Below, in pieces: positions 13,953 to 38,020 of a DNA stretch of 64,000 nucleotides; position 1 is the stretch's first letter; every line of letters begins with the position of its first letter. The notes under the pieces were generated by a model. The model was not told the DNA's origin. It worked only from the letters and a program-made list of their open reading frames with translations, and did not search any database. Location: positions 2,059-66,058 of the forward strand of contig CANQKX010000002.1 in NCBI GenBank assembly GCA_947624565.1, given 5' to 3'. Made by a program: the position numbers and the translations under genes. Source of the stretch: an uncultured Bacilli bacterium (GTDB lineage: Bacteria; Bacillota_I; Bacilli_A; RF39; UBA660).

Positions 13953-14023
13953 AAGAATACAAAAATTAAATTAAAGTTTTTCAAATAAGTTAGATTAAAA
14001 TGTTTATAGAATGTGAGGTAAAA

Positions 14024-16083: not shown

Positions 16084-16088
16084 TTTAA

Positions 16089-16655
16089 ATGGATATAGTA
16101 AATCAAGTTGAAAAAGAAGTAAGAAAATATATTGAAGAATATAAAAATAATTCAGAAGATAATTACGATTTTTGGAATGAACATGTAAAATATGTATATA
16201 AAGAGTCTATTGATTTAGCAAAAAAATATAATGCTGATGAAGAAGTAGTACGATTAGGAGCTTTATTACATGATATTGCTTTAATTCGTCAAGTAGGAGA
16301 TAAGAAAGACCATCATATAAATGGAAAGATAATTGCAGAAGAAATATTATCTAAATATTTATATCCAGTGGATAAAATGAATAGAGTATTGAACTGTATT
16401 TATAATCATAGAAGCAGTAAAAATGGAACTACTTTAGAAGAGTTGTGTGTAGCAGATGCAGATATTTTAGCACATTTCGATAATATTTCAATGTTGTTTA
16501 ATTTAGCTTATAATAGATACAACATTAATTTAAATGAAGTTAGAGAGTGGATGAGAAATGCTTTTGAAAAAGACTATAATGATTTAAGTGAAAAAACAAA
16601 AGAAAGTTTTAAAGAAAAATACACTCAGATTTGTAAAATAGTACTAGGTGATTAA
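16089..16655 (+). CDS. HD-domain protein
   Basis: LGALLHDIAL...H HD motif; 188 aa. Confidence 0.55.
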   Translation: MDIVNQVEKEVRKYIEEYKNNSEDNYDFWNEHVKYVYKESIDLAKKYNADEEVVRLGALLHDIALIRQVGDKKDHHINGKIIAEEILSKYLYPVDKMNRVLNCIYNHRSSKNGTTLEELCVADADILAHFDNISMLFNLAYNRYNINLNEVREWMRNAFEKDYNDLSEKTKESFKEKYTQICKIVLGD

Positions 16656-16682
16656 TTAATAATTTATAAGGAAGTGATAATA

Positions 16683-17546
16683 ATGGAAAATCGACAAAAT
16701 CAGGCAAACATCAACTGGTATCCAGGTCATATGGCAAAGACAAGAAGAGAGATAAAAGAAAAGATAGATTTAATAGATATAGTTTATGAAGTAATAGATG
16801 CAAGAATTCCTATATCTTCAAAAATAAAAGATATAGATGATTTAGTAAAAAATAAACCTAGAATATTAATAATGACTAAAACTGATTTATGTGATATAAA
16901 TAAGACAAATAAACATGTAAAATACTATGAGAGTTTAGGATATAAAGTAGTATTAGTTGATTTAGTAAATAATAAAAATGTTGATAAGATAAAGATAGTT
17001 ACTGAAAATGTATTAAAAGAAATAAATGAAAAAAGAGAGTCAAAAGGATTAAAAGTTAGAACAGCAAGGGCTCTTATAATTGGAATACCAAATGTTGGTA
17101 AATCAACTTTAATCAATCGTTTATCAGGTAAAAAAGTTGTAAATGTAGGTGATAAACCTGGAGTTACAAAACAACTTAGTTGGATAAGAATTAGTAAAGA
17201 TGTAGATTTAATGGATACACCTGGAATATTATGGCCTAAGATAGATAATGAAATTCAGGCAATTAATTTGGCATGTTTTTCAGCAATTAAAGAAGAAATA
17301 ATTCCAACAGATGAAATTGCTTGTTATATTCTTAAATATATGTTTAAAAATTATAAAGAAAATGTAAAACAAAGATATGGTGTTACATCAATGGATTTTG
17401 ATGATTTTACAGATGTATATGAATTAATTGGAAGAAAAAGGGGTTGCATTTTAAAAGGAAATGAAGTAGACTATGATAAGGTATCAAATATTATTATTAA
17501 AGATTTAAAAGAAGGATACTTAGGTAAGGTAACATTTGATGATTAA
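16683..17546 (+). CDS. rbgA: ribosome biogenesis GTPase A (YlqF/RbgA)
   Basis: Circularly permuted GTPase: G4 (MTKTDL) lies before G1 (GIPNVGKST), and WYPGHM is at the N-terminus. Confidence 0.85.
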   Translation: MENRQNQANINWYPGHMAKTRREIKEKIDLIDIVYEVIDARIPISSKIKDIDDLVKNKPRILIMTKTDLCDINKTNKHVKYYESLGYKVVLVDLVNNKNVDKIKIVTENVLKEINEKRESKGLKVRTARALIIGIPNVGKSTLINRLSGKKVVNVGDKPGVTKQLSWIRISKDVDLMDTPGILWPKIDNEIQAINLACFSAIKEEIIPTDEIACYILKYMFKNYKENVKQRYGVTSMDFDDFTDVYELIGRKRGCILKGNEVDYDKVSNIIIKDLKEGYLGKVTFDD

Positions 17547-18177
17547 TATGACTGAATATGAAGAAAATTTAAATAAACAAGGATATAATTATATTGGTGG
17601 ATGCGATGAAGCAGGTCGTGGTCCACTAGTTGGTCCTGTTGTGGCAGGTTGTGTAGTTTTTCCAAAAGGATATAAAAATGATTTAATAAATGATTCAAAG
17701 AAATTATCTGAAAAGAAAAGAGAAAAACTATATGATATAATTATAAAAGATGCACTAAGTTATGGAATTGGAATTGTATCTGCTAAAGAAATAGATGAAA
17801 TAAATATACTTGAAGCATCAAGAAAAGCAATGATACTTGCTTATAATGAGGCATCAAAAAAAATAAATATAGATTATTTACTTACAGATGCGATGAAAAT
17901 AAATACACTTGATATACCTGTTTTAGATATAATAAAAGGAGATTCAAAGAGTGTATCTGTTGCGGCAGCATCTATACTTGCTAAGGTAACAAGAGATAAT
18001 ATATTATATGAACTTGATAAAAAGTATCCAGAGTATGAATTTAGAAATCATAAAGGATATCCAACAAAAAGACATTTAGAACTTCTAGAAAAATATGGAG
18101 TATTTGATGAATATAGAATGACATATAAACCTGTAAAAAATATAATTGATAGGGGAATATTTAGAAAAAAGAGTTAA
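17539..18177 (+). CDS. rnhB: ribonuclease HII
   Basis: IGGCDEAGRGPLVGPVV catalytic motif. Confidence 0.85.
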   Translation: MINMTEYEENLNKQGYNYIGGCDEAGRGPLVGPVVAGCVVFPKGYKNDLINDSKKLSEKKREKLYDIIIKDALSYGIGIVSAKEIDEINILEASRKAMILAYNEASKKINIDYLLTDAMKINTLDIPVLDIIKGDSKSVSVAAASILAKVTRDNILYELDKKYPEYEFRNHKGYPTKRHLELLEKYGVFDEYRMTYKPVKNIIDRGIFRKKS

Positions 18178-18202
18178 TAATATATTAGAAAGGATTGATT
18201 AT

Positions 18203-20233
18203 ATGAGCAAAAATTTAGTTATAGTTGAATCACCAGCCAAAAGTAAAACTATAGAAAAATATTTAGGTGATGGTTATAAAGTATTATCATCTAAAGGACA
18301 TATTAGAGATTTAGCGACTTCTGGTAAATATGGGTTTGGTGTTGATATTGAAAATGGATTTAAACCTACATATGAACCAATTAAAGGTAAGAAGAAAGAT
18401 ATATCAGCATTAAAAAAAGAAGTAGAAAAAGCAGATAAAGTTTATCTAGCAACCGATCCTGATAGAGAAGGAGAAGCTATAAGTTGGCATTTAAAAGATG
18501 CACTTGATATAAAAGATGATGAATATGAGAGAATTGTATTTAATGAAATAACTAAAGATGCAGTAGTAAATTCTTTTAAAAATGCAAGAAAAATAGATGA
18601 TTTAATGGTTAGAAGTCAAGAGACAAGAAGAATACTTGATAGAATAATTGGTTTTAGATTAAGTAAACTTATGCAATCTAAAACAGGTGGTAAGAGTGCT
18701 GGTAGAGTTCAATCTGTTGCTTTAAAATTAATAGTAGATAGAGAAAAAGAAATACAAAAGTTTATACCTGAAGAATATTGGACAATAAAAGCAATATTTC
18801 CAAATTTTGATGCAACTTTGTTTGGGTATAAAGATGATAAAAAATTAGAGATAAAAAATGAACTTGAATCTCAAGAAATAGTTAATAAACTTTCTAATAG
18901 TTATAAAATAGAATCAGTAGAAAAGAAAAATAAAAATAAATCATCAAAACCTGTATTTATAACTAGTACAATGCAGCAAGAAGCAGCTAATAAACTAAAT
19001 TTTTCTTCAAAAAAAACTATGAGTGTTGCTCAAAAGTTGTATGAAGGTATTAATATAGGAAAAGAAACTGTAGGTTTAATTACTTATATGAGAACTGATT
19101 CTACGCGTTTATCTAATGAATTCATAAATAGTGCATTAAAATATATTGAAGTAAATTATGGTAAAGAATATGTAGGAACAGTAAAAAAACAAAAGAAAAC
19201 TGAAAATGTTCAAGATGCTCATGAAGGTATTAGACCAACAAGTATACTTAGAACTCCAGAAAGCATTAAAGAATATTTAACAAACGATGAATATAAATTA
19301 TATAAATTAATATATTATAGAGCACTTTCATCACTAATGAAAGAATCTAAACAACAATTAACTTCAGTAGTTCTTGATAATAATAACTATAAATTTAAAA
19401 TTACAGGAACAATTACTACATTTGATGGTTATTTAAAAGTATATAAAGAATATGAAAAACAAGAAGATAATATATTACCTGATTTTTCTAAATATAATTC
19501 AAGTGTAATAATAACTGATAATATAGAACAAAAACAACATTTTACAGAGCCACCAGCAAGATATACTGAGTCATCACTAATCAAAGAAATGGAAAAATTA
19601 GGTATAGGTAGACCATCTACATATGCAACTACAATTAGTACAATAATTGATAGAGGATATGTAAATATTACTGATAAAAAATTTTTCCCAAGTGAAATAG
19701 GTATTCAGACAACTGATAAATTACAAGAATTTTTTAGTAATTTAATCAATGTAAAATATACTGCAAAGATGGAAGAAGATTTAGATAATATTGCATCAGG
19801 TGAGGTAATATGGAATGAATTATTAGAAGAATTTTATAAGGAGTTTGAACCTATGGTTAAAGATGCATTTGATAATATGGAGAAAAAAGAACCTGAAAAA
19901 ACTGGTGAAACATGTCCAGAATGTGGTAAAGATTTAGTAAAAAGAAATGGTAGATATGGAGAATTTATCGCATGTTCTAATTATCCTGAATGTAAATATA
20001 TTAAAAAAGAAGAAAAGAAAATTATAGAAGTATGTGATTGCATTAAATGTGGAAGTAAAATAGTAGAAAGAAAGACTAAAAAAGGTAAAATTTTCTATGG
20101 ATGTTCTAATTTTCCAAAATGTAAAGAAGCATACTGGGATAAACCAACTGGTAAATTATGTCCAGAATGTAATAGTATGTTAGTTGAAAAGAAAGATGAA
20201 GTAAAATGTTCAGCATGCGATTATAAGGAATAG
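18203..20233 (+). CDS. topA: DNA topoisomerase I
   Basis: TOPRIM N-terminus (LVIVESPAKSKTIEKYLG), active-site region, and three C-terminal C4 zinc ribbons (CPECGK..., CDCIKCGS..., CPECNS...). The ORF is listed from 18146; the ATG at 18203 with an aaagga RBS is preferred. Confidence 0.9.
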   Translation: MSKNLVIVESPAKSKTIEKYLGDGYKVLSSKGHIRDLATSGKYGFGVDIENGFKPTYEPIKGKKKDISALKKEVEKADKVYLATDPDREGEAISWHLKDALDIKDDEYERIVFNEITKDAVVNSFKNARKIDDLMVRSQETRRILDRIIGFRLSKLMQSKTGGKSAGRVQSVALKLIVDREKEIQKFIPEEYWTIKAIFPNFDATLFGYKDDKKLEIKNELESQEIVNKLSNSYKIESVEKKNKNKSSKPVFITSTMQQEAANKLNFSSKKTMSVAQKLYEGINIGKETVGLITYMRTDSTRLSNEFINSALKYIEVNYGKEYVGTVKKQKKTENVQDAHEGIRPTSILRTPESIKEYLTNDEYKLYKLIYYRALSSLMKESKQQLTSVVLDNNNYKFKITGTITTFDGYLKVYKEYEKQEDNILPDFSKYNSSVIITDNIEQKQHFTEPPARYTESSLIKEMEKLGIGRPSTYATTISTIIDRGYVNITDKKFFPSEIGIQTTDKLQEFFSNLINVKYTAKMEEDLDNIASGEVIWNELLEEFYKEFEPMVKDAFDNMEKKEPEKTGETCPECGKDLVKRNGRYGEFIACSNYPECKYIKKEEKKIIEVCDCIKCGSKIVERKTKKGKIFYGCSNFPKCKEAYWDKPTGKLCPECNSMLVEKKDEVKCSACDYKE

Positions 20234-20250
20234 AAATATTCCTTATTTTA
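20224..20250 (+). terminator. rho-independent terminator overlapping the topA stop
   Basis: aaggaata-gaaa-tattcctt hairpin followed by a T-run. Confidence 0.6.
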
Positions 20251-20251
20251 T

Positions 20252-20280
20252 TTGACATATTAAAATATGATATGTATAAT
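20252..20280 (+). promoter_or_regulatory. consensus sigma-A promoter (TTGACA-17-TATAAT)
   Basis: TTGACA at 20252-20257, a 17-nt spacer, and TATAAT at 20275-20280 (TGtATAAT, extended -10-like). Confidence 0.55.
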
Positions 20281-20307
20281 ATGGTAAAAAAAGGGGGGTG
20301 TTTTATT

Positions 20308-20943
20308 TTGCTAAATAATTTTGAAGTAATTGAAGAAAGATATGATAAAGAATTTATAAATCGTTTAAGTAAAGAAAAATGTAGTAATATTAAAATTGGT
20401 AATATTTATTATGGTGGTATTCCTCTTAATATATTAGCGCTTTCTTATTATTTATGTAGGAAAAATTGTCATTTTATTGCTATACAACTATCTAGAGTAT
20501 TAGATGAATTTAACCTTGTTACAGGTAATGTTAGAGGAATGAATTATACAAAAGATGGAAATCATAGTTGGATAGAAACAAGAGATTGGGTAATAGATCA
20601 AACTTGTGGTTCTAAATATAAAATACCTTATTATTATGCAATTTTTGATCCTAAGGTAGTAAGTGTAATAAATCAAGATACATATTTTATGAATAATATT
20701 TATATGTATTATTTAACTCGTAATGATAAATATGATATAGATGAAAGAACTAATTTAGAATTAATATTTAAATTATTAGAATATTTAGAAAAATTAAAAC
20801 CTACTCCTAATGGTAAAAAATTATTTGAAGAAATAGAAAAATATAAAATTAAAAATCCATATAATGATAAATTATCAAATGAAACTATAAAAAAATATAT
20901 ATACAATGCCGCACCACAATGTTTACAAGGTATAAAATATTGA
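20308..20943 (+). CDS. transglutaminase-like cysteine peptidase superfamily protein
   Basis: Cys-His-Asp triad motifs in the canonical order and context: KNCHFIA (G-x-C-x-x-F-A), NHSWIE (H-x-W-x-E), and DWVIDQT. Start placed at the TTG at 20308 after a ggggggtg RBS; the listed ORF start at 20272 lies inside the promoter. Confidence 0.45.
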   Translation: MLNNFEVIEERYDKEFINRLSKEKCSNIKIGNIYYGGIPLNILALSYYLCRKNCHFIAIQLSRVLDEFNLVTGNVRGMNYTKDGNHSWIETRDWVIDQTCGSKYKIPYYYAIFDPKVVSVINQDTYFMNNIYMYYLTRNDKYDIDERTNLELIFKLLEYLEKLKPTPNGKKLFEEIEKYKIKNPYNDKLSNETIKKYIYNAAPQCLQGIKY

Positions 20944-20984
20944 CATAATTAAATAAAAAAAGTACAATAATAGTGTAAAAACGT

Positions 20985-21178
20985 TGATGAAAGAATAGTA
21001 ATAAGAAATATTTATTTAATAGAGAATCAGTATTTGGTGAAAACTGATAATAAATATTCTTACGAATCTACTTTCTAGTGCGACTAACAATCGCCGGATA
21101 AAACCGTTATTAAATTAAGTAAAACAAAGGATGGTACCGTCTTAAGACTCCTTATAGGTACTATCCTTTTATTTTTTA
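20985..21178 (+). promoter_or_regulatory. T-box riboswitch leader of serS
   Basis: AGAGA box at about 21022, the conserved T-box sequence AAGGATGGTACCG at 21127-21139, and an overlapping terminator (aaggatggtacc...ggtactatcctt followed by a T-run) directly upstream of serS. Confidence 0.6.
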
Positions 21179-21194
21179 GAAAGGAACTGATAAT

Positions 21195-22487
21195 ATGTTA
21201 GATATTAAATTTGTAAGAGAAAATAAAGAAATAGTAAAGGAAAATATTAAAAAGAAATTTCAAGATAAAAAATTACCACTTGTAGATAAAGTAATTTCTT
21301 TAGATGAAGAATATAGAAAAATTAAAGTAAAGGCAGATAATTTAAGAAAAGAAAGAAATGATATTAGTGATAATATAGGTTCTTTAATGAGAGAAGGTAA
21401 AAAAGAAGAAGGGCTTGCTTTAAAAGATAAAGTAATAAAGATAAACGAAGAGTTAAGTGTTTTAGAAAAAGATGAAAATAAATATGAAGAAGAAATAAAA
21501 AAAATTATGTATTTAATTCCTAATATAATTGCGGATGATGTACCTATTGGAGAAGATGATTCAAAAAATGTAGAAATAGAAAAAATAGGAGATCCTATTA
21601 TTCCAAATTATGAAATTCCATATCATGCTGATATAATGAATAGTTTTAATGGACTTGATAAAGAATCAGCAGCTAAAGTATCAGGATCAGGATTTTATTA
21701 TCTTATGGGTGATATTGCAAGACTTCATTCAGCAGTACTTTCTTATGCAAGAGATTTTATGATTGATAAAGGATTTACTTATTGTATACCACCATTTATG
21801 ATTAGAAGTGACGCTGTTAATGGAGTTATGAGTTTTGAAGAAAAAGAAGCAATGATGTATAAAATAGAAGGAGAAGATTTGTACTTAATAGGAACATCAG
21901 AACACTCTATGATTGCTAAATTTAAAAATCAAATATTGAAAGAAGATAAATTGCCAATAACTATGACATCATATTCACCATGTTTTAGAAAAGAAGTAGG
22001 TGCGCATGGCATAGAAGAAAGAGGAGTATATAGAGTTCATCAATTTGAAAAACAAGAAATGATTGTAATATGTAAACCAGAAGATAGTGAAATTTGGTAT
22101 GAGAAAATGTTAAATTATACAGTAGAATTATTTAGAAATTTAGATATACCTGTTCGTAAACTTGTGTGCTGTTCAGGCGATTTAGCAGATTTAAAATATA
22201 GATCATGTGATGTAGAAGCATTTTCACCAAGACAAAATGCATACTTTGAAGTAGGTTCATGTTCTAACTTAACTGATGCACAAGCAAGAAGACTTGGTAT
22301 AAAATACAAAACAGAAACTGGTGAAAAAGTATATGCACATACACTTAATAATACAGTATTAACTCCTCCTAGAATGTTAATTGCATTTTTAGAAAATAAT
22401 TATAATGAAGATGGAAGTGTGAATATACCAAAATCTTTACAGCCATATATGGGTGGAAAAGATAAAATATACCCAAATAATAAATAA
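21195..22487 (+). CDS. serS: seryl-tRNA synthetase
   Basis: N-terminal coiled-coil arm followed by a class II core; 430 aa. Confidence 0.9.
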   Translation: MLDIKFVRENKEIVKENIKKKFQDKKLPLVDKVISLDEEYRKIKVKADNLRKERNDISDNIGSLMREGKKEEGLALKDKVIKINEELSVLEKDENKYEEEIKKIMYLIPNIIADDVPIGEDDSKNVEIEKIGDPIIPNYEIPYHADIMNSFNGLDKESAAKVSGSGFYYLMGDIARLHSAVLSYARDFMIDKGFTYCIPPFMIRSDAVNGVMSFEEKEAMMYKIEGEDLYLIGTSEHSMIAKFKNQILKEDKLPITMTSYSPCFRKEVGAHGIEERGVYRVHQFEKQEMIVICKPEDSEIWYEKMLNYTVELFRNLDIPVRKLVCCSGDLADLKYRSCDVEAFSPRQNAYFEVGSCSNLTDAQARRLGIKYKTETGEKVYAHTLNNTVLTPPRMLIAFLENNYNEDGSVNIPKSLQPYMGGKDKIYPNNK

Positions 22488-22498
22488 AAGGATTGATA

Positions 22499-23080
22499 AT
22501 GATTATAAAAGGTAGTAATGTTATTATTTATGTAAATAATAAAAATATCAATAAATTAATTAAGAAAACTAAAAAAATATTAAAATTATGTGATGAAAAT
22601 AATTATAAATTAATGTTTAATTATTTAGAAAATATAATAGATGAAGAGAAGTTATTTTGGATTAAAAATATCCAAAAAACGATAAATATAAAAGACATCA
22701 AAAAAAGATATAGTTTTATTTATGATGTTGTATGTAGTTATATTGATGATAAATATAAAAAATATAATTATTGTGATTTCAAAGATGATGTATGCATATT
22801 TTTTAGGAATAATCCTAATATATGTCATAAAAATGGATGTTGTTATAGTGATGCAAGAGGAGGACTTTGCAAAAATTTAAAAAATAATTCTTGTCAAATT
22901 AAATCAATATCATGTAAACTATATTCATGTGAATATTTAAGAAAAAATAAAGTTAATTTTAGAATGAAATACATTCCTTTAATTAAATATTTTTTCAATA
23001 TAAAACAAAAATATTATATTAAATATAGTTTCTTTAAAGAAAAAAATTATGTTTTAAATAGATTATTAGATAAGAGGTAA
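22499..23080 (+). CDS. cysteine-rich hypothetical protein (possible CxxCxxCC-type metal-binding cluster, YkgJ/UPF0153-like)
   Basis: Nine or more Cys in about 70 aa: YCDFKDDVC...CHKNGCCYSD...C...SCQIKSISCKLYSC. It is a paralog of the next gene. Confidence 0.35.
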   Translation: MIIKGSNVIIYVNNKNINKLIKKTKKILKLCDENNYKLMFNYLENIIDEEKLFWIKNIQKTINIKDIKKRYSFIYDVVCSYIDDKYKKYNYCDFKDDVCIFFRNNPNICHKNGCCYSDARGGLCKNLKNNSCQIKSISCKLYSCEYLRKNKVNFRMKYIPLIKYFFNIKQKYYIKYSFFKEKNYVLNRLLDKR

Positions 23081-23083
23081 AAA

Positions 23084-23698
23084 ATGGATTTAAAAAAAAT
23101 GGTATTAGATAATAAATTAATATTACAAATAACTGATGATAATTTAAAGTATATAATAAAAAATACAAAATCTTTAATAAAATTTTGCGATAAACGAAAT
23201 TTAATAGTGGAGTTAATATATAATGACAAAAAAATAGATGAAAAATATTTAAAAAAAGATATATCTAATGATTTAAGAGATATTATTACTATAATGCATG
23301 CGATAAATATAAAAGATAAATATAAAAGATATGATTATATATATGATACAGTATGTGGTTATCTAGATGAAAGAATAAAAACAAATTATTGTGAGTTTAA
23401 AGATAATATATGTGTAAAATATAGAAATAAAGGATCAAATCATGAAAATGGTTGCTGTGAATGTAAAGGAAGAGGTAGATGTAAATACTTAATTGATGGA
23501 GTATGTACAATGAAATCATGTATGGCATGTAAATTATTTACTTGTCATACACTTAAAAAATTAGGTATAACTCAAAATATAAATGATTTTGTACTTACTA
23601 GATATTTCTTTGACACAAAAGAAAAAGATATATTACAATTTAGTTATTGGACCCCAAAAGAAATAGTTATGGATAAATTAATGAAAAGAGTTAGATAA
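23084..23698 (+). CDS. cysteine-rich hypothetical protein, tandem paralog of 22499..23080
   Basis: Shared pattern: RYD.IYD.VC.Y.D......YC.FKD..C...RN....NGCC...C....C..KSC..CKL..C..L.K...RYFF. There is a gaggt RBS. Confidence 0.35.
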   Translation: MDLKKMVLDNKLILQITDDNLKYIIKNTKSLIKFCDKRNLIVELIYNDKKIDEKYLKKDISNDLRDIITIMHAINIKDKYKRYDYIYDTVCGYLDERIKTNYCEFKDNICVKYRNKGSNHENGCCECKGRGRCKYLIDGVCTMKSCMACKLFTCHTLKKLGITQNINDFVLTRYFFDTKEKDILQFSYWTPKEIVMDKLMKRVR

Positions 23699-23753
23699 TA
23701 TATTTAAAATTATTATTTTGGTATGATATAATACAAATCGTGAGGTGTTAGAT

Positions 23754-25193
23754 ATGTTAAAATATGTGAATGTAAAACCATCTTATTTAGAGGCTAAAAA
23801 AAGAAGTAATTCTAAAGTTAAGATATTAACAGATGAATATATTATGAATAATGAATTAAGTAAAATAGGAATAGGTAAAAAATATTATATAATTACCTAT
23901 GGTTGTCAAGCAAATGAAAGAGATTCACAAACCATAAGTGCAATACTTGAAGATATGTCATTTACTAGTACCAATGATATGAAAGATGCTGATTTAATAC
24001 TTTTAAATACATGTGCAATTAGAGAAAATGCACACAATAAGGTTTTTGGTATGCTTGGAAGAATCAAACATTTAAAAATGCAAAAGCCAGAAATAATTAC
24101 TTGTTTATGCGGATGTATGGCTCAAGAAGAATCAGTAGTTAATGAAATAGAAGAAAAATATAAATGGATGGATGTAGTATTCGGTACTCATAATATTCAA
24201 AATTTACCTTGTTTAATTAGTAATGCAATAAATAATAATGAACTTATTATTGAAGTATTTAGTAAAGAGGGAGATGTAATTGAAAATTTACCTGTTAAAA
24301 GAGATAATAAATATAAAGCATATGTAAATATAATGTATGGATGTGATAAATTTTGTACTTATTGCATAGTTCCATATACAAGGGGTAAACAAAGAAGTAG
24401 AAGATTAGAAGATATAAAGTGTGAAGTTCAAAAATTAATTAATGATGGATATAAAGAAGTAACATTACTTGGGCAAAATGTTAATGCATATGGTAAAGAT
24501 TTAGATGATGGCATTACTATGGACAAATTACTAGAAGAAATCGCTAAGATGAACATTGAAAGAATAAGATTTATTACTTCACATCCATGGGACTTTTCAG
24601 ATGAAATGATACAAGTAATAAAAAAATATGATAATATAATGCCATATATTCATCTTCCACTTCAATCAGGTAGTGATAAAATTTTAAAATTAATGGGTAG
24701 AAGATATACTAAAGAACAATATTTAAATCTTGCAAATAAAATAAAAAAAGAAATACCTAATGTATCATTAACAACAGATATTATAGTAGGATTTCCTAAT
24801 GAAACACAAGAAGATTTTAAAGAAACTTTAGATGTAGTAGAAAAATGTAAATATGATGGTGCATTTACATTTATATATTCTCCTAGAGAAAATACACCTG
24901 CATCTAAAATGGAGGATAGTATACCTTTAGAAGAAAAACAAGAAAGATTACAAAGATTAAATGAATTAGTAAATAAATATGCATTAATTAATAATAAAAA
25001 GTTGGAAAATAAAATAGTTAAAGTTTTAATTGAGGGTAAATCTCAAAAAGGAAATAATTTATATTCTGGATATACAGATACTATGAAATTAGTTAATGTA
25101 AAGTGTGATGATAAAGATGTTGGTAATATTATTGATGTAAAAATTACTGAAGCTAAAACTTGGAGTTTAGATGGAGAAAAAATAAATGAATAA
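23754..25193 (+). CDS. miaB: tRNA-2-methylthio-N6-dimethylallyladenosine synthase (radical SAM methylthiotransferase)
   Basis: N-terminal MTTase Cys triad (YGCQANE...NTCAIRE...CGCMAQ), radical-SAM CxxxCxxC (GCDKFCTYCIVP), and a TRAM C-terminus. Confidence 0.85.
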   Translation: MLKYVNVKPSYLEAKKRSNSKVKILTDEYIMNNELSKIGIGKKYYIITYGCQANERDSQTISAILEDMSFTSTNDMKDADLILLNTCAIRENAHNKVFGMLGRIKHLKMQKPEIITCLCGCMAQEESVVNEIEEKYKWMDVVFGTHNIQNLPCLISNAINNNELIIEVFSKEGDVIENLPVKRDNKYKAYVNIMYGCDKFCTYCIVPYTRGKQRSRRLEDIKCEVQKLINDGYKEVTLLGQNVNAYGKDLDDGITMDKLLEEIAKMNIERIRFITSHPWDFSDEMIQVIKKYDNIMPYIHLPLQSGSDKILKLMGRRYTKEQYLNLANKIKKEIPNVSLTTDIIVGFPNETQEDFKETLDVVEKCKYDGAFTFIYSPRENTPASKMEDSIPLEEKQERLQRLNELVNKYALINNKKLENKIVKVLIEGKSQKGNNLYSGYTDTMKLVNVKCDDKDVGNIIDVKITEAKTWSLDGEKINE

Positions 25194-25521
25194 TATTGTA
25201 GAAGAAGTTGAAAAATTAAAAGATATGATATTATCATCTAATGAATATAAAGACTATAAAAAATATGAAAAAATACTTGATAATAATAGAGAAATAAATC
25301 TTATAATAGATAATATAAAAAATGTTCAAAAAATAATAATTAATAAAGAAGATAAAAAAGAAAATACTGATAAAGAAGAAATAGAACTGCAAAGTTTATA
25401 TAAAAAGTTAAATACTTATGATGAATATATAAATTATATTAATTCATCAAAAATTCTTAATGAAGTAATTACATATATACAAAAAGAGTTTGAAAACTAC
25501 TTTAATCAATTTATAGTTTAA
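25186..25521 (+). CDS. YlbF/YmcA (RicA-like) family protein
   Basis: 111-aa helical protein immediately downstream of miaB, the same arrangement as B. subtilis ymcB-ymcA. The N-terminus is YmcA-like. Confidence 0.5.
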   Translation: MNNIVEEVEKLKDMILSSNEYKDYKKYEKILDNNREINLIIDNIKNVQKIIINKEDKKENTDKEEIELQSLYKKLNTYDEYINYINSSKILNEVITYIQKEFENYFNQFIV

Positions 25522-25601
25522 TATATAAAGTGATTAAAGTTTTTTTTTTGACAAATTATTAATTATGTATATAATATACTATTACTTAATGGAGAAAAAT
25601 C

Positions 25602-25895
25602 ATGGAAGAAAAAAATTTAAATAAATTCTTAAAACTAGTAAATATATATTATGAAAGATTATTGTCAGGAGTTTCTGTGCATGACTTAGTTAGTCAACTT
25701 GATACAGAATGTTTTTTATATGATTATAATAAAATTGCCAAAATAGATGATTTATCTAATTATGTTGGTTTTATTGAAAAACAGGAAGATAAAGAAGAAA
25801 ATTGGTATGCATTGTCATATGCAGTATATAGATTTTTAGGTAATAATTTTTCTAATAATCAAACTATAGATAAATATATTTTACAAATGACTTAA
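25602..25895 (+). CDS. hypothetical protein (97 aa)
   Basis: ORF preceded by a TTGACA-17-TATAAT-like promoter at about 25548-25575 and a ggagaaaaa RBS. Confidence 0.35.
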   Translation: MEEKNLNKFLKLVNIYYERLLSGVSVHDLVSQLDTECFLYDYNKIAKIDDLSNYVGFIEKQEDKEENWYALSYAVYRFLGNNFSNNQTIDKYILQMT

Positions 25896-25932
25896 AGATA
25901 AAAATATGATAGAATATAATTGGTGAAGTAAT

Positions 25933-26565
25933 ATGTATTTTGAATATAATGGAAATAAATATGAAATAATTATTGAAAAAAAAAATAATAAAAATACATA
26001 CATAAGAGTTAAGGAAGATTTGAAAATATATATTTCAACATCATATTTAACTCCTAAATATGTAATTAAGTCACTAATTAAAAATAATAGAAGTCAAATT
26101 TGTAAAATGATAGATAATGTAATTAAGAAAAACGATAAAAAAAATGAATATTGGTATTTAGGAAAAAAGTTAAATATAATTAAAACTAATGTTAAAAAGG
26201 CATATTTAGATGATGATAATTTATATGTTAATAGTCAAGAAGATATTGATAAATGGTTTAATAAAATGAGTAAAAAAGTATTTAAAGAAAGATTAGATAT
26301 TATTTATAATAATTTTACTGAAATTGTTCCATATCCTAAAATTGTCATAAGAAAAATGAAAACAAGATGGGGAGTATGTAACAAAAATTTAGAAAAAGTA
26401 ACATTAAATTATAATTTAATTTATATGGATAGAAAATACTTAGATTACGTAATAGTTCATGAATTGTCACATTTTATACATTTTAATCATAGTAAAGAGT
26501 TTTGGAAATTAGTAGAAGAAAATGAACCTAATTATAAACAAATTAGAAAAGAGATGAGAAGTTAA
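25933..26565 (+). CDS. YgjP-like (DUF45/M48 family) metal-dependent hydrolase
   Basis: TRWGVC and HELSHFIHFNHS (HExxH) motifs in the layout typical of the YgjP/SprT-like family. Confidence 0.55.
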   Translation: MYFEYNGNKYEIIIEKKNNKNTYIRVKEDLKIYISTSYLTPKYVIKSLIKNNRSQICKMIDNVIKKNDKKNEYWYLGKKLNIIKTNVKKAYLDDDNLYVNSQEDIDKWFNKMSKKVFKERLDIIYNNFTEIVPYPKIVIRKMKTRWGVCNKNLEKVTLNYNLIYMDRKYLDYVIVHELSHFIHFNHSKEFWKLVEENEPNYKQIRKEMRS

Positions 26566-27290
26566 TGATTATTGAATCTATAGATAATAAGAAAATTAAA
26601 AATCTAAGAAAATTAAAGCAAAAAAAATACAGAGATATAGAAGAGAAATTTTTAATTGAAGGAATTCATCTCGTACTAGAAGCATATTCAAGTGGTGATT
26701 TATTAGAAGTATTACTTGAGAAAGATGAACATATTGATATTGATGTAAAAACTACATACGTAACAAAAGATGTAATTAAATCTTTGTCAGAACTTCAAAC
26801 ACCATATAATGTAATTGGAGTTTGTAAATATAAAAAAGAAAGCAATATTGCAGAAAAAGTATTAATATTAGATAACATTCAAGATCCAGGTAATTTAGGT
26901 ACAATAATTAGAAGTAGTGTTGCATTTGATGTAGATACAATAATTTTAAGTAATGATACAGTAGATTTATACAATTCCAAGGTGTTAAGAGCAGCTCAGG
27001 GTATGAATTTTCATATTAATATATTAAAAGGTGATATCAAAGAATATATATTAAAATTAAAAAAAGATAATTATAGAATATATACAACAGATGTAAAAGA
27101 TGGTAAATTAATAAAAAATATTAATAATAATGGAAAATATGCTATAATAATGGGTAATGAAGGAAGCGGAGTATCGGATGATATTAAATTGCTTTCTGAT
27201 GATAAAATATATATAAAAATGAATAAAAAATGTGAAAGTTTAAATGTTGCTGTTTGTACATCAATAATTTTATACGAATTAAATAAATAA
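26565..27290 (+). CDS. TrmH/SpoU-family RNA 2'-O-methyltransferase
   Basis: SpoU motifs LILDNIQDPGNLGTIIRS and IIMGNEGSGVS. Confidence 0.75.
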   Translation: MIIESIDNKKIKNLRKLKQKKYRDIEEKFLIEGIHLVLEAYSSGDLLEVLLEKDEHIDIDVKTTYVTKDVIKSLSELQTPYNVIGVCKYKKESNIAEKVLILDNIQDPGNLGTIIRSSVAFDVDTIILSNDTVDLYNSKVLRAAQGMNFHINILKGDIKEYILKLKKDNYRIYTTDVKDGKLIKNINNNGKYAIIMGNEGSGVSDDIKLLSDDKIYIKMNKKCESLNVAVCTSIILYELNK

Positions 27291-27303
27291 GTAGGTGAAT
27301 TAT

Positions 27304-27786
27304 ATGAAGTTTATAAAAATAGGTAAAATAGTAAATACACATGGAATAAAAGGTGAACTTAGAATATTATCAAATTTTAGACATAAAGATAAAGTATTTG
27401 TTAAAAATATGAAAGTTTATGTTGGTAAAAAGAAACAAGAATTTATTATAAACTCATATAGATTTCACAAAATATATGATATGGTAACATTTGAAGGTTT
27501 TAACAATATTAATGATGTAGAATATTTAAAGGGAGATTATGTATACATAAACGAAGATGATTTGATTTTGGATAATGATGAAATTTATTCAGAAAAGTTA
27601 ATTGGTTTTGATGCATATATAGGTGATAAAAAAGTAGGCATAGTAACTGAAGTTATAGATACTCCTGCAAATGAAGTAATAAGAATTAATGAAAATATAT
27701 TAGTTCCATATGTAAACGATTTTATAAATAAAATAGACATGGATAATAATAGTATTTACATTAATGATATAGGAGGTTTAATATGA
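27304..27786 (+). CDS. rimM: 16S rRNA processing protein RimM
   Basis: KIGKIVNTHGIKGELRI N-terminus and a PRC barrel C-terminus. The ORF is listed from 27295; the ATG at 27304 follows an aggtga RBS. Confidence 0.8.
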   Translation: MKFIKIGKIVNTHGIKGELRILSNFRHKDKVFVKNMKVYVGKKKQEFIINSYRFHKIYDMVTFEGFNNINDVEYLKGDYVYINEDDLILDNDEIYSEKLIGFDAYIGDKKVGIVTEVIDTPANEVIRINENILVPYVNDFINKIDMDNNSIYINDIGGLI

Positions 27787-28895
27787 AATTTAAGGTCTTA
27801 ACATTATTTCCTCATATGTATGATGGTTTTTTAACAGAATCTATTATAAAAAGAGCAATAGATGAAAAATTAGTAAAAATTAGTATACATAATATAAGAG
27901 ATTATACTGAATATAAACATCATCAAGTAGATGATACTCCATATGGTGGAGGAAGTGGAATGCTTTTAATGTGTGATCCTATATTTAAAGCAATTGAGGA
28001 TTTAAAGAAAAAAAATACAAAAGTAATAATGATGAGTCCTGATGGAATTAAATATGACCAAAATAAAGCTTATGAATTAGCAAAAGAAAAAGATTTAATC
28101 ATATTATGTGGACATTACGAAGGATTTGACGAAAGAATTAGTTCTATAGTAGATGAAAAAATAAGTATTGGTGATTATGTTTTAACTGGTGGAGAATTAC
28201 CATCAATGGTGTTAATGGATTCTATTACAAGATTAATTCCTGGTGTAATAAAAGAAGAGTCTCATATAAAAGATTCATTTAATGATAATTTGCTTGATTA
28301 TCCACAGTATACAAAACCAAGAGAATATAAGGGTATGAAAGTTCCAGACGTACTTTTAAGTGGGGATCATAAGAAGATTGATGAATGGAGAAAAGAAGAA
28401 GCATTAAAGAAAACAGAAAAAGAAAGACCAGATTTATCAGAAATAAAAAGAAAACAAATTGGTAATTACACTTTAATGCAAGATAATAGAAAGAAACAAA
28501 TAGATTCTATTAATATAAATGATGCATATAATTTTAAACCTAAAAATAAAGTAAAAAAAGAAGATTTATCATCTATTAGTAAAATAGTTTTAGTTGAACC
28601 AACATTTATTGAAACAATAGCAAAAAAGAATATTAATAAAAAATTAAATATTTTATTAAAACAAGTTGCAATTGTCATAAATGATGAAACTGATGATGAA
28701 GGTGCAAATTATGTGCTTGGGGAAATAGATAGACTTGAAAATATGATATTAAGTAATTATGAAAAATATTTAAATACTGAATATATAAAATTAATTAAAA
28801 ATAAATTATTAATGCTAAAAGAAGAAATTAAATATAAACAAATGATGAGAGTACAAACTATTGATTATGAAAAGGGGAAAGGAAGAAGTAGATAA
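27783..28895 (+). CDS. trmD: tRNA (guanine37-N1)-methyltransferase with an unusual C-terminal extension of about 120 aa
   Basis: The canonical TrmD core fills residues 1 to about 245 (FKVLTLFP...GGGSGMLLM...GHYEGFDERI...DHKKI), followed by about 125 extra residues in frame. Confidence 0.8.
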   Translation: MKFKVLTLFPHMYDGFLTESIIKRAIDEKLVKISIHNIRDYTEYKHHQVDDTPYGGGSGMLLMCDPIFKAIEDLKKKNTKVIMMSPDGIKYDQNKAYELAKEKDLIILCGHYEGFDERISSIVDEKISIGDYVLTGGELPSMVLMDSITRLIPGVIKEESHIKDSFNDNLLDYPQYTKPREYKGMKVPDVLLSGDHKKIDEWRKEEALKKTEKERPDLSEIKRKQIGNYTLMQDNRKKQIDSININDAYNFKPKNKVKKEDLSSISKIVLVEPTFIETIAKKNINKKLNILLKQVAIVINDETDDEGANYVLGEIDRLENMILSNYEKYLNTEYIKLIKNKLLMLKEEIKYKQMMRVQTIDYEKGKGRSR

Positions 28896-29932
28896 TGAAT
28901 ATAATTTTAACAGGAGATAGACCTACAGGAAAATTACATTTAGGACACTTAGTTGGTTCTTTAAATCAAAGAGTAAAACTTCAAAATGAAGGAAATTATG
29001 ATCAAATGTATATTATGATTGCGGATTCTCAAGCTTTAACAGATAATTTTGATAATCCTAAAAAAATAAAAGAAAACGTAAAAGAAGTAATACTTGATTA
29101 TTTATCAGTTGGAATTGATCCAAATAAAGTAAATATATTTCTTCAGTCACAAGTTTCACAACTTACTGAATTAACATTTTATTATTCTAATTTAGTTACA
29201 GTATCAAGGCTTCAAAGAAATCCTACTGTTAAATCTGAAATAAATCAAAAAAAATTTGAAAAAAGTATACCAGTTGGATTCTTTACTTATCCAATAAGTC
29301 AGGCTGCAGATATAACAGCATTTAAGGCAAACATTATACCTGTAGGGGAAGATCAATTACCAATGATTGAGCAAACAAATGAGATAGTACATTCCTTTAA
29401 TAGAATTTATGGTGATACATTAGTTGCTTGTAAAGCAGTACTTTCAGAAAATGAAGTAGCAAGAAGACTTCCAGGACTTGATGGAAATAGTAAAATGAGT
29501 AAATCACTTAATAATTGCATATATTTATCAGATTCTAAAGAAGAAGTATATAAAAAAGTAATGAGTATGTATACTGATCCAAATCATATAAAAGTAGAAG
29601 ATCCTGGTAAAGTAGAAGGAAATATGGTCTTTACTTATTTAGATGTATTTTCAGATGATAATAAAATAAGTAAGTATTCAGATTTTTCATCACTTAATGA
29701 AATGAAAGAAAAATATAAAAGTGGTGGACTTGGAGATGTTAAAATTAAAAAAATATTATTTGATATTTTAGAAGAAATGCTTACTCCAATTAGAGAAAAA
29801 AGGAAATATTATGAAGAAAATATTAATGAAGTATATGAAATACTAAAAAAAGGTACTGAGAATGCTAAAAAACAAGCAAATAAAACATTACAAGAAGTAA
29901 AAAAAGCAATAATGATAGATTATTTTGATTAA
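28895..29932 (+). CDS. trpS: tryptophanyl-tRNA synthetase
   Basis: HIGH-type motif TGKLHLGHL and KMSKS; 345 aa. The start overlaps the trmD stop (ATAATG). Confidence 0.85.
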   Translation: MNIILTGDRPTGKLHLGHLVGSLNQRVKLQNEGNYDQMYIMIADSQALTDNFDNPKKIKENVKEVILDYLSVGIDPNKVNIFLQSQVSQLTELTFYYSNLVTVSRLQRNPTVKSEINQKKFEKSIPVGFFTYPISQAADITAFKANIIPVGEDQLPMIEQTNEIVHSFNRIYGDTLVACKAVLSENEVARRLPGLDGNSKMSKSLNNCIYLSDSKEEVYKKVMSMYTDPNHIKVEDPGKVEGNMVFTYLDVFSDDNKISKYSDFSSLNEMKEKYKSGGLGDVKIKKILFDILEEMLTPIREKRKYYEENINEVYEILKKGTENAKKQANKTLQEVKKAIMIDYFD

Positions 29933-29967
29933 AGATATATTTATATAATTAGCATAGGTGGTTAATT

Positions 29968-30846: not shown

Positions 30847-30894
30847 TAATGAATATTTATTAATTTAATGTAAATACTATTACTGGGTGATAAA

Positions 30895-31323
30895 ATGCAA
30901 GAAAATATAAATGCACTAGATGAATTAAATAAGGGTGCAACTATGGGGATGGACGCTATTAATTTTGTATTAGATAAAGTAGAAGATGAAGAATTTAAGA
31001 AAACTTTAGAACTTGAATATAATAAATATAAAGATATATCTAGAAGAGCAAATGAATTATATTCAAAGTATAGTGATGATAAACCCCATGAAACAAATGC
31101 TATGAATAAAGCAATGACTTGGTCAGAAGTACAAATGAAAACAATTACAGATAAAAGTAATTCTAAAATAGCAGAACTTTTAATGCAAGGAACTAATATG
31201 GGAATAATAGAAGGAAGAAAATTGTTAAATAACAAGGTTATTGATAAGAAAGTATATGAATTAATAGAAGAATTTGTCAATATGCAAGAAGATAGCGTTG
31301 AAAAATTAAAGACCTATTTATAA
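30895..31323 (+). CDS. hypothetical helical protein (ferritin-like/four-helix-bundle-like)
   Basis: ORF with an RBS; all-helical composition. Confidence 0.35.
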   Translation: MQENINALDELNKGATMGMDAINFVLDKVEDEEFKKTLELEYNKYKDISRRANELYSKYSDDKPHETNAMNKAMTWSEVQMKTITDKSNSKIAELLMQGTNMGIIEGRKLLNNKVIDKKVYELIEEFVNMQEDSVEKLKTYL

Positions 31324-31376
31324 AAGATATTTAAAAAATATCTTTTTTTTGTTATAATTTTTTGTAGGAGGCATGT

Positions 31377-32203: not shown

Positions 32204-32213
32204 GGAGGATATT

Positions 32214-38019: not shown

Positions 38020-38020
38020 T

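What the first reader, a model, noticed from the sequence alone, without database searches (positions are those of the whole stretch)
22493..23698. Tandem paralogous cysteine-rich proteins inserted between serS and miaB
Two adjacent genes (about 195 and 204 aa) share a conserved core with at least nine cysteines (YC.FKD..C...RN....NGCC...C....C..KSC..CKL..C) and a conserved RYFF..K.K tail. That argues for a real, duplicated gene family, not spurious ORFs. The pattern CxxxxGCC...C...CxxxxSC resembles CxxCxxCC-type metal-chelating modules (YkgJ/UPF0153-like), but I cannot place it confidently. The position directly upstream of a radical-SAM enzyme gene may be coincidental.
Basis: seen in the sequence. 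Interest (0 to 1): 0.55.

Follow-up and report, generated by a model that had tools for sequence, protein, structure and literature searches.

The report
Unclassified eight-cysteine protein pair after serS
Two neighbouring genes encode diverged copies of a protein family that no database describes, found only in uncultured low-GC gut bacteria, whose eight never-changing cysteines and confidently predicted but unmatched fold suggest a new metal-binding (probably iron-sulfur) protein of unknown role.

Summary
ORF1 (22499..23080, 193 aa) and ORF2 (23084..23698, 204 aa) are paralogs (36% identity, E 4e-37). They lie between serS and miaB, each has its own ribosome-binding site, and both are under purifying selection (dN/dS 0.14-0.33).

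They belong to a family of at least 618 clusters at 50% identity, all unnamed or labelled "hypothetical". The members come from uncultured, very AT-rich gut Firmicutes (order RF39, plus Ca. Merdicola).

Eight cysteines are kept in at least 99% of 351 representatives. In some genomes the two paralog types are fused into one protein, which suggests that they work together.

The only recurrent weak resemblance covers about 40 residues and is to the [4Fe-4S] motif of D27-like_C (PF13225). It is below threshold, and D27's reported fold relatives were not recovered.

Gene neighbourhoods vary widely. The miaB adjacency holds only in one lineage and is probably coincidental.

Best reading: a new cysteine-cluster metalloprotein family, with Fe-S favoured over Zn. 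Its cellular role is unknown.

The parts
22488..22492 (+). Ribosome-binding site (AAGGA) of ORF1. It starts immediately after the serS stop codon (22485-22487) and lies 6 nt before the ATG at 22499.
   Evidence: Sequence read. The 193-aa product equals P0121.
22499..23080 (+). ORF1, 193 aa: the 'ORF1-type' paralog of the cysteine-cluster family. Universal cysteines are C92, C99, C114, C115, C124, C132, C139 and C144, plus C79, which aligns with the 94%-conserved family position. It lacks the extra cysteine between C132 and C139.
   Evidence: dN/dS 0.14-0.30.
22709..22930 (+). Conserved core of ORF1, from the Y-x-[YF]-IYD helix to CKLYSC. It holds all eight universal cysteines.
23072..23077 (+). 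Ribosome-binding site (AAGAGG) of ORF2. It lies inside the last codons of ORF1, 6 nt before the ATG at 23084.
   Evidence: Sequence read.
23084..23698 (+). ORF2, 204 aa: the 'ORF2-type' paralog. It has a small N-terminal alpha/beta unit (about residues 1-60), two long helices, and then the cysteine core. Universal cysteines are C103, C110, C124, C125, C133, C141, C149 and C154, plus C91, C146, C35 and C127.
   Evidence: dN/dS 0.17-0.33. AlphaFold2 pLDDT 94.6.
23330..23545 (+). Conserved core of ORF2 (residues 83-154). The segment C133-K-Y-L-x4-C141-x4-C146-x2-C149-K-L-F-x-C154 gives the sub-threshold PF13225 (D27-like_C) matches seen in related members.
21195..22487 (+). serS (seryl-tRNA synthetase), the upstream gene. 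Only a short gap (11 nt from its stop codon to the ORF1 ATG at 22499) and no terminator separate it from ORF1, so it is probably co-transcribed with ORF1 and ORF2. It is the most conserved neighbour within the close clade.
23754..25193 (+). miaB-type methylthiotransferase (UPF0004 + Radical_SAM + TRAM), the downstream gene. It is context only. Promoter-like sites lie at 23610-23639 and 23703-23732.

Best explanation
ORF1 and ORF2 are two diverged paralogs of a cytoplasmic cysteine-cluster protein family that no database classifies. The family occurs in uncultured, very AT-rich gut Firmicutes.

**Shown**
- The genes are real, are under purifying selection, and are probably expressed as a serS-ORF1-ORF2 unit.
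- The roughly 140-residue core has eight cysteines that essentially never change, plus a ninth kept in 94% of members.
- The fold is predicted with high confidence and has no relative among solved structures.
- The two paralog types occur as tandem genes, as one fused polypeptide, or (in CAG:433) at separate loci.

**Inferred**
- The eight cysteines hold two metal centres that organise the fold.
- I favour iron-sulfur clusters over zinc, most simply two [4Fe-4S]-type sites, for four reasons:
  1. The invariant cysteines contain no CxxC zinc knuckles.
  2. They include an adjacent CC pair.
  3. The C-terminal run is C-x-Y-L-x4-C-x3/4-C-x2-C-K-L-F-x-C. It has the CxxxCxxC spacing in about a third of members.
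  4. That run is locally like the [4Fe-4S] site of D27 isomerases.
- ORF1-type and ORF2-type subunits work as a heteromer. ORF1 is the more degenerate partner, having lost one cysteine.
- The cellular role is not determined. My guess is a redox or electron-transfer function, or an Fe-S-dependent accessory function, in these anaerobes. I do not think it is a dedicated MiaB partner.
For: **Real and selected**
- ORFs, ribosome-binding sites and paralogy.
- Homologs: 144 and 105 in the two searches.
- dN/dS 0.14-0.33.
- No terminator between serS and miaB.

**Family size and range**
- 618 clusters at 50% identity with E <= 1e-3, and 158 with E <= 1e-30.
- All 57 genome loci are in gut MAGs labelled Bacilli, Tenericutes or Erysipelotrichaceae. 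They include Clostridium sp. CAG:433 and Mycoplasma sp. CAG:956.
- GTDB family CAG-433 belongs to order RF39 (PMC8035907).
- One subfamily is in Ca. Merdicola / CAG:354, class Clostridia.
- No relatives were found in viral contigs.

**Cysteine invariance**
- C103 347/348, C110 350/351, C124 348/350, C125 348/350, C133 350/351, and C141, C149 and C154 each 351/351.
- C91 327/349.

**Unclassified**
- No significant match in Pfam, NCBIfam, PHROGs, PADLOC or PDB sequences.

**Fold**
- pLDDT 94.6, pTM 0.89.

**Partnership of the paralogs**
- Fused proteins of about 347 aa with 22 cysteines, in the same order (ORF1-type then ORF2-type), sit at the same serS-miaB position. They were seen on many contigs.
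- The tree separates an ORF1-type clade from an ORF2-type clade.

**Fe-S lean**
- PF13225 (D27-like_C) is a recurrent sub-threshold hit on the Cys core in 8 of 109 members. The best is 17.4 bits, E 0.0044, with residues 115-154 aligned to profile positions 27-66 of 88.
- Rice D27 binds a [4Fe-4S] cluster through C199, C211, C215 and C242, within C199-x7-C207-x3-C211-x3-C215-K (PMC13254051).
- The motif C-x-aromatic-L-x4/5-C-x3/4-C-x2-C-[KR] occurs in 208/351 members, and the CxxxCxxC spacing in 108/351.
- There is no signal peptide, and by general knowledge the hosts are gut anaerobes.
Against: - No metal content has been measured, and I could not inspect model coordinates. The grouping of cysteines into sites is therefore not shown.
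- The D27-like_C similarity is below Pfam's threshold (17.4 against 27 bits). It covers about 40 Cys-rich residues and could be compositional.
- The extra cysteine that matches D27 ligand C211 is missing from ORF1-type proteins.
- Two Zn(Cys)4 sites would explain the invariance equally well.
- L032 has an ORF1-type gene with no ORF2-type gene beside it, so an obligate heteromer is not proven.
- Gene neighbourhoods give no functional hint.
- The AlphaFold database could not be searched.
Confidence: 0.55

Rival explanations
1. The domain is a structural zinc domain. The eight cysteines form two Zn(Cys)4 sites that stabilise a small adaptor. The adaptor would bind nucleic acid or another protein and would have no redox chemistry.
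For: - Apart from the cysteines, the invariant residues are mostly structural: Y87, F105, G123, F175 and F176.
- No obvious catalytic residues stand out.
- Both proteins are basic, with pI 9.1-9.6.
- Two short beta-hairpins flanked by cysteine pairs (C103/C110 and C133/C141) resemble zinc knuckles in the predicted secondary structure.
Against: - None of the eight invariant cysteines forms a CxxC pair (spacings 6, 13, 0, 7, 7, 7, 4).
- There is an adjacent CC pair.
- No zinc-finger or zinc-ribbon Pfam model matches.
- No zinc-domain fold neighbour was found.
- A high pI is normal for a 23% GC genome.
Confidence: 0.25
2. The family is an accessory factor for radical-SAM enzymes. It would act as a dedicated reductant or an Fe-S cluster donor for MiaB and similar enzymes, which would explain its place just upstream of miaB.
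For: - miaB lies immediately downstream across one clade.
- In a second, unrelated neighbourhood a PflA-like radical-SAM gene (PF04055) follows and overlaps the family gene in six loci.
- By general knowledge, MiaB-type enzymes consume an auxiliary cluster and need it rebuilt.
Against: - These are only two of several dozen distinct neighbourhood types. That is about what chance gives if 1-2% of genes are radical-SAM enzymes (my rough assumption for that share).
- Within the serS clade, fhs or MazF-like genes are often inserted between the family gene and miaB. The conserved link is to serS, not miaB.
- Other members sit between obg and dinB, sigma factor and pyrG, rpe and an SLH protein, and sigA and ctsR.
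Confidence: 0.1
3. The family is a very diverged member of the YkgJ/UPF0153 (PF03692, CxxCxxCC) cysteine-cluster family.
For: - Both families have about eight conserved cysteines including a CC pair.
- Both have a C-x-[FY]-L-x4/5-C element. For YkgJ this is recalled from the family consensus and from the E. coli sequence.
Against: - PF03692 gives no hit at E <= 10 in the 111 sequences scanned at that cut-off, and none at E <= 0.01 in 78 further long members.
- CxxCxxCC occurs in 0 of 351 members.
- hhalign against a 21-sequence YkgJ alignment gives probability 0.07%, E 0.68.
Confidence: 0.05
4. The family is an exported or spore-associated protein rich in disulfides. In this reading the cysteines form cross-links and do not bind metal.
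For: - Cysteine content is high.
- Some neighbourhoods include cell-envelope genes such as PBPs, FtsEX/PcsB, SpoIID and an SLH protein.
Against: - There is no signal peptide or hydrophobic N-terminus.
- The hosts are gut anaerobes with a reducing cytoplasm (general knowledge).
- The cysteine positions are fixed across sequences that are only about 30% identical.
Confidence: 0.03

Closest known systems
D27-like_C (PF13225, formerly DUF4033), the [4Fe-4S] domain of beta-carotene isomerase DWARF27
   Same: - This is the only curated model that repeatedly touches the Cys core: 8 of 109 members, best E 0.0044.
- The local motifs are alike. D27 has C199-R-Y-L-x4-C207-x3-C211-x3-C215-K. This family has C133-K-Y-L-x4-C141-x3/4-C-x2-C149-K.
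- In D27 that stretch supplies three of the four [4Fe-4S] ligands (PMC13254051).
   Different: - Scores are below the gathering threshold (17.4 against 27 bits), and only about 40 residues align.
- The cysteine equivalent to D27 ligand C211 is absent from ORF1-type members.
- D27 is a plant, algal and cyanobacterial carotenoid enzyme. These hosts are gut anaerobes.
YkgJ / UPF0153 / COG0727 'zinc- or iron-chelating domain' (PF03692, CxxCxxCC)
   Same: - It is a small cytoplasmic protein with about eight conserved cysteines including a CC doublet.
- Its function is also unknown.
   Different: - There is no HMM match, no CxxCxxCC motif, and no profile-profile signal.
- The cysteine spacing and the protein length differ.
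Ferredoxin-type 2x[4Fe-4S] domains (CxxCxxCxxxCP)
   Same: - The cysteine count (eight) would fit two cubane clusters.
- The C-terminal four cysteines lie within 14 residues, after a Y-L-I-D-like strand. This loosely echoes the ferredoxin motif.
   Different: - The spacing is C-x3/4-C-x2-C-x4-C, with no CP.
- The first four cysteines are spread over 23 residues.
- No Fer4 Pfam model matches, and CxxCxxCxxxC occurs in only 2 of 351 members.
- The protein is two to three times larger than a ferredoxin.
Arginase/HDAC-like alpha/beta fold (long-form members only)
   Different: - Sequence identity is 6-12%, and there is no Pfam match.
- The window proteins keep only a remnant of about 60 residues of this domain, and some members lack it entirely.

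Membership tests
YkgJ / UPF0153 (PF03692, CxxCxxCC) | Match to the PF03692 profile at or near its gathering score | tested here: not met
   No PF03692 hit at E <= 10 for ORF1 and ORF2 or for 109 members. No hit at E <= 0.01 for 78 long members. The same model is recorded for every listed YkgJ homolog but one.
YkgJ / UPF0153 (PF03692, CxxCxxCC) | N-terminal C-x2-C-x2-C-C motif | tested here: not met
   The regex C..C..CC matches 0 of 351 family representatives. The family has H/x-x-N-G-C-C at that place.
YkgJ / UPF0153 (PF03692, CxxCxxCC) | Profile-profile similarity to YkgJ homologs | tested here: not met
   hhalign of A3 against A5 gives probability 0.07%, E 0.68, over 17 columns. Caveat: A5 contains only enterobacterial YkgJ sequences (64-81% identity).
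D27-like_C (PF13225) | Match to the PF13225 profile at its gathering score (27 bits) | tested here: not met
   The best score is 17.4 bits (E 0.0044). Eight of 109 members give sub-threshold hits on the Cys core, and ORF1 and ORF2 themselves give none.
D27-like_C (PF13225) | Cysteine pattern C-x7-C-x3-C-x3-C-K ... C-x18-C-x4-C, with four [4Fe-4S] ligands | tested here: inconclusive
   The first part is closely mimicked: C-x7-C-x3/4-C-x2-C-K in 208 of 351 members. The spacing differs by one residue, the later cysteines do not correspond, and ORF1-type members lack the third cysteine.
D27-like_C (PF13225) | H-NOX/TRAPP-like alpha+beta fold with a hydrophobic substrate cavity (PMC13254051) | tested here: not met
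   [not shown]
Ferredoxin-type 4Fe-4S dicluster domains | Two CxxCxxCxxxCP motifs, or a Fer4 Pfam match | tested here: not met
   CxxCxxCxxxC occurs in 2 of 351 members. No Fer4 family appears among the listed Pfam hits at E <= 10.
Iron-sulfur or zinc metalloprotein (general class) | Bound Fe-S cluster or Zn, with cysteine ligands clustered in space | not testable with these tools
   Only sequence invariance and a confident model without accessible coordinates are available. Metal analysis, or inspection of S-gamma distances in the model, is needed.
Phage or defence-system protein | Match to PHROGs or PADLOC models, or presence on viral contigs | tested here: not met
   PHROGs gives only noise (E of 0.004 or worse, different families each time). 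PADLOC gives nothing. No relative was found in IMG/VR.

The most novel reading that the evidence does not exclude
The family is a previously unrecognised iron-sulfur protein fold that serves as a conserved, chromosomally encoded core component of uncultured, genome-reduced gut Firmicutes (order RF39 and a Clostridia clade that includes Ca. Merdicola). It would bind two clusters through eight invariant cysteines. In some lineages it would work as a heterodimer of diverged paralogs. It might supply a redox function, for example electron delivery to Fe-S or radical-SAM enzymes, that other bacteria obtain from ferredoxins or flavodoxins.
Probability: 0.3. Interest if true: 0.65.

Novelty: new variant of a known kind. 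Interest (0 to 1): 0.5.

Why it matters
If the eight-cysteine core is a new Fe-S or Zn fold, it would add a structural class to the catalogue of metal-cluster proteins. It would also give a handle on the physiology of RF39-type gut bacteria. These are common in humans and livestock, have never been cultured, and have strongly reduced genomes.

A well-conserved family that appears confined to a few such lineages could serve two purposes. It is a candidate lineage marker. It is also a candidate replacement for a function these genomes lack.

The natural fusion of the two paralog types gives a ready-made construct for expression and metal analysis. Even without a known function, the family deserves a database entry at domain-of-unknown-function level. 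It has 618 clusters at 50% identity and none carries a name.

Tried and rejected
1. **YkgJ link.** I fetched E. coli ykgJ and built a YkgJ alignment. hhalign was negative.
3. **Direct-coupling analysis.** I ran it on 332 aligned members to infer which cysteine-flanking residues are in contact. The top pairs were gap and indel artefacts in the N-terminal region, so I discarded the result.
4. **Retrieving D27 sequences for a profile-profile test.** I used a D27 fragment recalled from memory; its cysteine spacing agrees with PMC13254051. tblastn against plasmids found nothing. The PDB holds no D27, only a chance-level HdrA ferredoxin-motif match. The D27 link therefore rests on Pfam's own model only.
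5. **Radical-SAM association.** I clustered the neighbours of 169 family genes in 150 loci. Two neighbourhood types have a radical-SAM gene downstream, which is about the chance expectation.
6. **Metagenome scan with alignment A4** (the most diverse alignment). I used A2 for the scan.
7. **Fused protein for the second structure job.** MAFFT stacked all unfused sequences onto the C-terminal half, so I dropped this. I modelled a long-form member (P0237) with that job.
8. **Pfam scan of N-terminal extensions** of 78 long members. Nothing was found.
9. **Regulatory RNA.** Rfam finds no T-box or other regulatory RNA upstream of serS at gathering score.
Full report
**1. What is in the sequence**

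The window is extremely AT-rich (22.8% GC). Two same-strand ORFs lie at 22493..23698, between a seryl-tRNA synthetase gene (21195..22487) and a MiaB-type methylthiotransferase gene.

- The mechanical TTG start of ORF1 at 22493 is probably wrong. An AAGGA site at 22488-22492 begins right after the serS stop and lies 6 nt before the ATG at 22499. That start gives 193 aa, identical to a protein seen on four public contigs (P0121).
- ORF2 starts at ATG 23084, 6 nt after an AAGAGG site inside the end of ORF1, and gives 204 aa (P0001).
- The region 20200-25700 has no terminator-like site. A TTGACA-17-TACAAT site precedes serS, and promoter-like sites precede miaB.
- Co-transcription of serS-ORF1-ORF2 is therefore likely, but it is an inference.
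- miaB more probably starts at ATG 23754 than at the listed GTG 23745.

**2.

- The two proteins align end to end: 36% identity, 60% positives, E 4e-37.
- They are the two most cysteine-rich ORFs in the window, at 5.7% and 5.9% against a median of 1.0%.
- Ten cysteines are at aligned positions.
- Against orthologous pairs in four related MAG loci, dN/dS is 0.14-0.30 for ORF1 and 0.17-0.33 for ORF2.
- These are real genes under purifying selection.

**3. The family**

- Word-indexed searches gave 144 relatives of ORF2 and 105 of ORF1.
- An exhaustive profile search of 1.84 billion representatives gave 618 clusters at 50% identity with E <= 1e-3, 345 with E <= 1e-10, and 158 with E <= 1e-30.
- Every name supplied by a source is "hypothetical protein".
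- No member has a precomputed Pfam domain except P0184, which carries PF01368, a DHH domain that is also encoded by a gene a few kb upstream of the family gene at L005.
- In one genome per GTDB species, 57 loci were found. All are in uncultured gut MAGs from human, rabbit, ruminants, goat and chicken, labelled Bacilli, Tenericutes or Erysipelotrichaceae. They include Clostridium sp. CAG:433, Mycoplasma sp. CAG:956 and Ca. Scybalousia.
- GTDB family CAG-433 lies in order RF39 (PMC8035907).
- One subfamily also occurs in Clostridium sp. CAG:354 / Ca. Merdicola, which NCBI places in Clostridia.
- At least one member (P0274) comes from a less AT-rich organism that has an SLH-domain protein next door.
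- No relative was found in 2.9 million viral contigs. PHROGs and PADLOC gave nothing meaningful.
- This is a cellular, chromosomal family.

**4. Anatomy and conservation**

Across 351 representatives aligned to the family profile, eight cysteines are essentially invariant (ORF2 numbering):

| Residue | Conserved |
|---|---|
| C103 | 347/348 |
| C110 | 350/351 |
| C124 | 348/350 |
| C125 | 348/350 |
| C133 | 350/351 |
| C141 | 351/351 |
| C149 | 351/351 |
| C154 | 351/351 |

- C91 is kept in 327/349.
- Also nearly invariant are Y87 (345/346), F105 (347/348), G123 (344/349) and K150 (340/351).
- H120, which the close relatives share, is not general (200/347).
- The consensus core is Y-x-Y-I-Y-D-x-V-C-x-Y-L-D ... 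N-Y-C-x-F-x4-C-x13-G-C-C-x7-C-x-Y-L-x4-C-x7-C-K-L-F-x-C ... [KR]-Y-F-F-N-x-K-Q-K.
- An additional cysteine lies between C141 and C149 in 208/351 members. In 108/351 it produces a C-x3-C-x2-C spacing. ORF2 has this cysteine (C146) and ORF1 does not.
- The N-terminus is variable. Some natural proteins are core-only (134-148 aa). The window proteins carry a beta-alpha-beta-beta-alpha unit of about 60 residues. Long forms of 250-411 aa carry a full alpha/beta domain.

**5. Tandem pair, single copy and fusion**

- An HMM scan of all fetched loci shows the tandem pair only in the window's own clade and in L025.
- Related genomes have a single copy between serS and miaB. Others have one fused gene of about 347 aa with 22 cysteines, consisting of an ORF1-type core followed by a complete ORF2-type protein.
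- The fusion is not an assembly artefact. Its 90% cluster has 32 members, and that exact protein was found on 14 contigs of up to several hundred kb.
- A neighbour-joining tree separates an ORF1-type clade from an ORF2-type clade. The ORF1-type clade includes the fusion N-halves. The ORF2-type clade includes the fusion C-halves and most single-copy serS-linked genes.
- So ORF1-type is the derived, faster-evolving paralog.
- In CAG:433 the two types sit on different scaffolds (L018, L031). In L032 only an ORF1-type gene is present at the locus.
- The fusion supports a functional, probably physical, partnership. An obligate heterodimer is not proven.

**6. Structure**

- With a 109-sequence alignment, AlphaFold2 gives ORF2 a mean pLDDT of 94.6 and pTM of 0.89.
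- The Cys region contains two short hairpins flanked by C103/C110 and C133/C141. Short helices carry C124/C125 and C149.
- Foldseek against 350,542 chains finds nothing better than E 1.8.
- A profile search of PDB sequences is also empty.
- The AlphaFold database libraries were not available, so "no known fold" is established only against solved structures.
- That is a weak lead for the long forms only. The window proteins retain just a remnant of that domain.

**7. Tests against known families**

- Pfam and NCBIfam give nothing for ORF1 or ORF2 even at E <= 10.
- Pfam also gives nothing at E <= 0.01 for 78 long members.

- PF03692 never appears among 189 scanned sequences.
- The motif occurs in 0 of 351 members.
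- hhalign against a YkgJ alignment, built from the E. coli gene and 20 homologs, gives probability 0.07%.

*Census of weak Pfam hits over 109 members at E <= 10:*
- Two families recur. DUF3836 hits 11 members on the helical, lysine-rich part, which is probably compositional.
- D27-like_C (PF13225) hits 8 members.
- The D27-like_C hits fall exactly on the Cys core. For example, P0098 residues 115-154 align to profile positions 27-66 of 88, at 17.4 bits against a gathering score of 27.

*What D27 is:*
- Rice D27 is reported to carry a [4Fe-4S] cluster ligated by C199, C211, C215 and C242. The conserved string is C199-x7-C207-x3-C211-x3-C215-K (PMC13254051).
- The family's C133-K-Y-L-x4-C141-x3/4-C-x2-C149-K is strikingly similar locally.

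*Why membership is not supported:*
- The score is below threshold, and only about 40 residues align.
- The remaining cysteines do not correspond.
- D27 is described as H-NOX/TRAPP-like, and no such neighbour appears for the ORF2 model.
- I could not retrieve a D27 sequence for a profile-profile test.
- I treat this as a "works like" hint for Fe-S binding, not as homology.

**8. Genomic context**

I clustered the neighbours of 169 family genes in 150 loci. The neighbourhoods found were:

- serS upstream in one large clade of about 45 loci. The downstream gene there is miaB, or an inserted fhs or MazF-like gene.
- obg-family-dinB, in about 14 loci.
- family-SDR-unknown gene-PF06838 lyase, in about 12 loci.
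- SseB-family-PflA-like radical-SAM gene, in 6 loci.
- tsaD-helicase-family, sigma factor-family-pyrG, acyltransferase-family-CmpB, rpe-family-SLH protein, and sigA-unknown gene-family-LamG-ctsR.

Two neighbourhood types with a radical-SAM gene downstream, out of several dozen, is about what chance would give. The conserved partner in the window's clade is serS, not miaB. Context therefore says only that this is a housekeeping-embedded chromosomal gene.

**9. Most likely mechanism**

*Shown:* a conserved, selected, cytoplasmic-looking protein with eight fixed cysteines in a confidently predicted compact fold, and paralogs that can be fused.

*Inferred:*
- The cysteines ligate two metal centres.
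- I favour Fe-S over Zn, roughly 55:30 within the metal hypothesis, for these reasons:
  1. There are no CxxC knuckles among the invariant cysteines.
  2. There is a CC doublet.
  3. The last four or five cysteines are closely spaced, and about a third of members have the CxxxCxxC spacing.
  4. The core locally resembles D27's cluster motif.
  5. The hosts are anaerobes.
- ORF1 and ORF2 probably act together. ORF1 would be a partly degenerate subunit.
- The downstream role (electron carrier, sensor or enzyme cofactor domain) is not determined by any evidence here.

**10. Novelty and verdict**

- At the level of family and fold this is new. No curated model exists, no source names it, and no solved structure matches.
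- At the level of mechanism it most likely belongs to a familiar kind, the cysteine-cluster metalloproteins. I therefore rate it a new variant of a known kind.
- Interest is moderate (0.5). It is a clean, large, taxonomically sharp orphan family with an unusually strong conservation signature and a ready experimental path. It has no functional anchor.

Noticed in passing
window 61767..62364 (+): A full-length OLE (ornate, large, extremophilic) RNA, RF01071, at 400 bits against a gathering score of 50, covering model positions 1-616. It is the only Rfam hit in the 64 kb window. An ORF (62319..62918) overlaps its 3' end. Finding OLE RNA in a 23% GC gut MAG of the RF39 type may be worth a separate look.
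   Followed up: no
window 1..64000: The window has extremely low GC (22.8%), with ORF1 at 16.3% and ORF2 at 20.5%. No tRNA genes were found in 64 kb, and nearly all long ORFs are on the + strand.
   Followed up: partly
window 20272..20943 (+): A 223-aa ORF between topA and serS has no Pfam match on record (211-aa gene call in L001). Among the loci compared, only the closest relatives (L001, L014) have it. Other relatives carry a DUF1653 gene at that position.
   Followed up: partly
L017 7001-7483; also L019, L020, L022, L031: One or two PemK/MazF-like toxin genes (PF02452) lie between the family gene and miaB in the CAG:433-like genomes; L019 and L020 also carry a formate-tetrahydrofolate ligase-like gene there. 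This shows that the serS-miaB interval accepts insertions.
   Followed up: partly
L057 6357-7292 (also L041, L047, L054, L056, L069): A PflA-like radical-SAM gene (PF04055 and Fer4_12) overlaps the stop codon of the family gene, and an SseB-domain gene lies upstream. This is a second, independent adjacency to a radical-SAM gene. It is not statistically convincing.
   Followed up: partly
[not shown]
   Followed up: partly
window 29968..30846 (+): A DUF1848 protein (292 aa, 11 cysteines, 3.8% Cys) is the third most Cys-rich ORF in the window.
   Followed up: no
L007 6669-7946: A 425-aa gene with no Pfam hit lies immediately upstream of a single-copy family member. The neighbourhood is ftsEX-pcsB ... 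SpoIID-uvrB.
   Followed up: no
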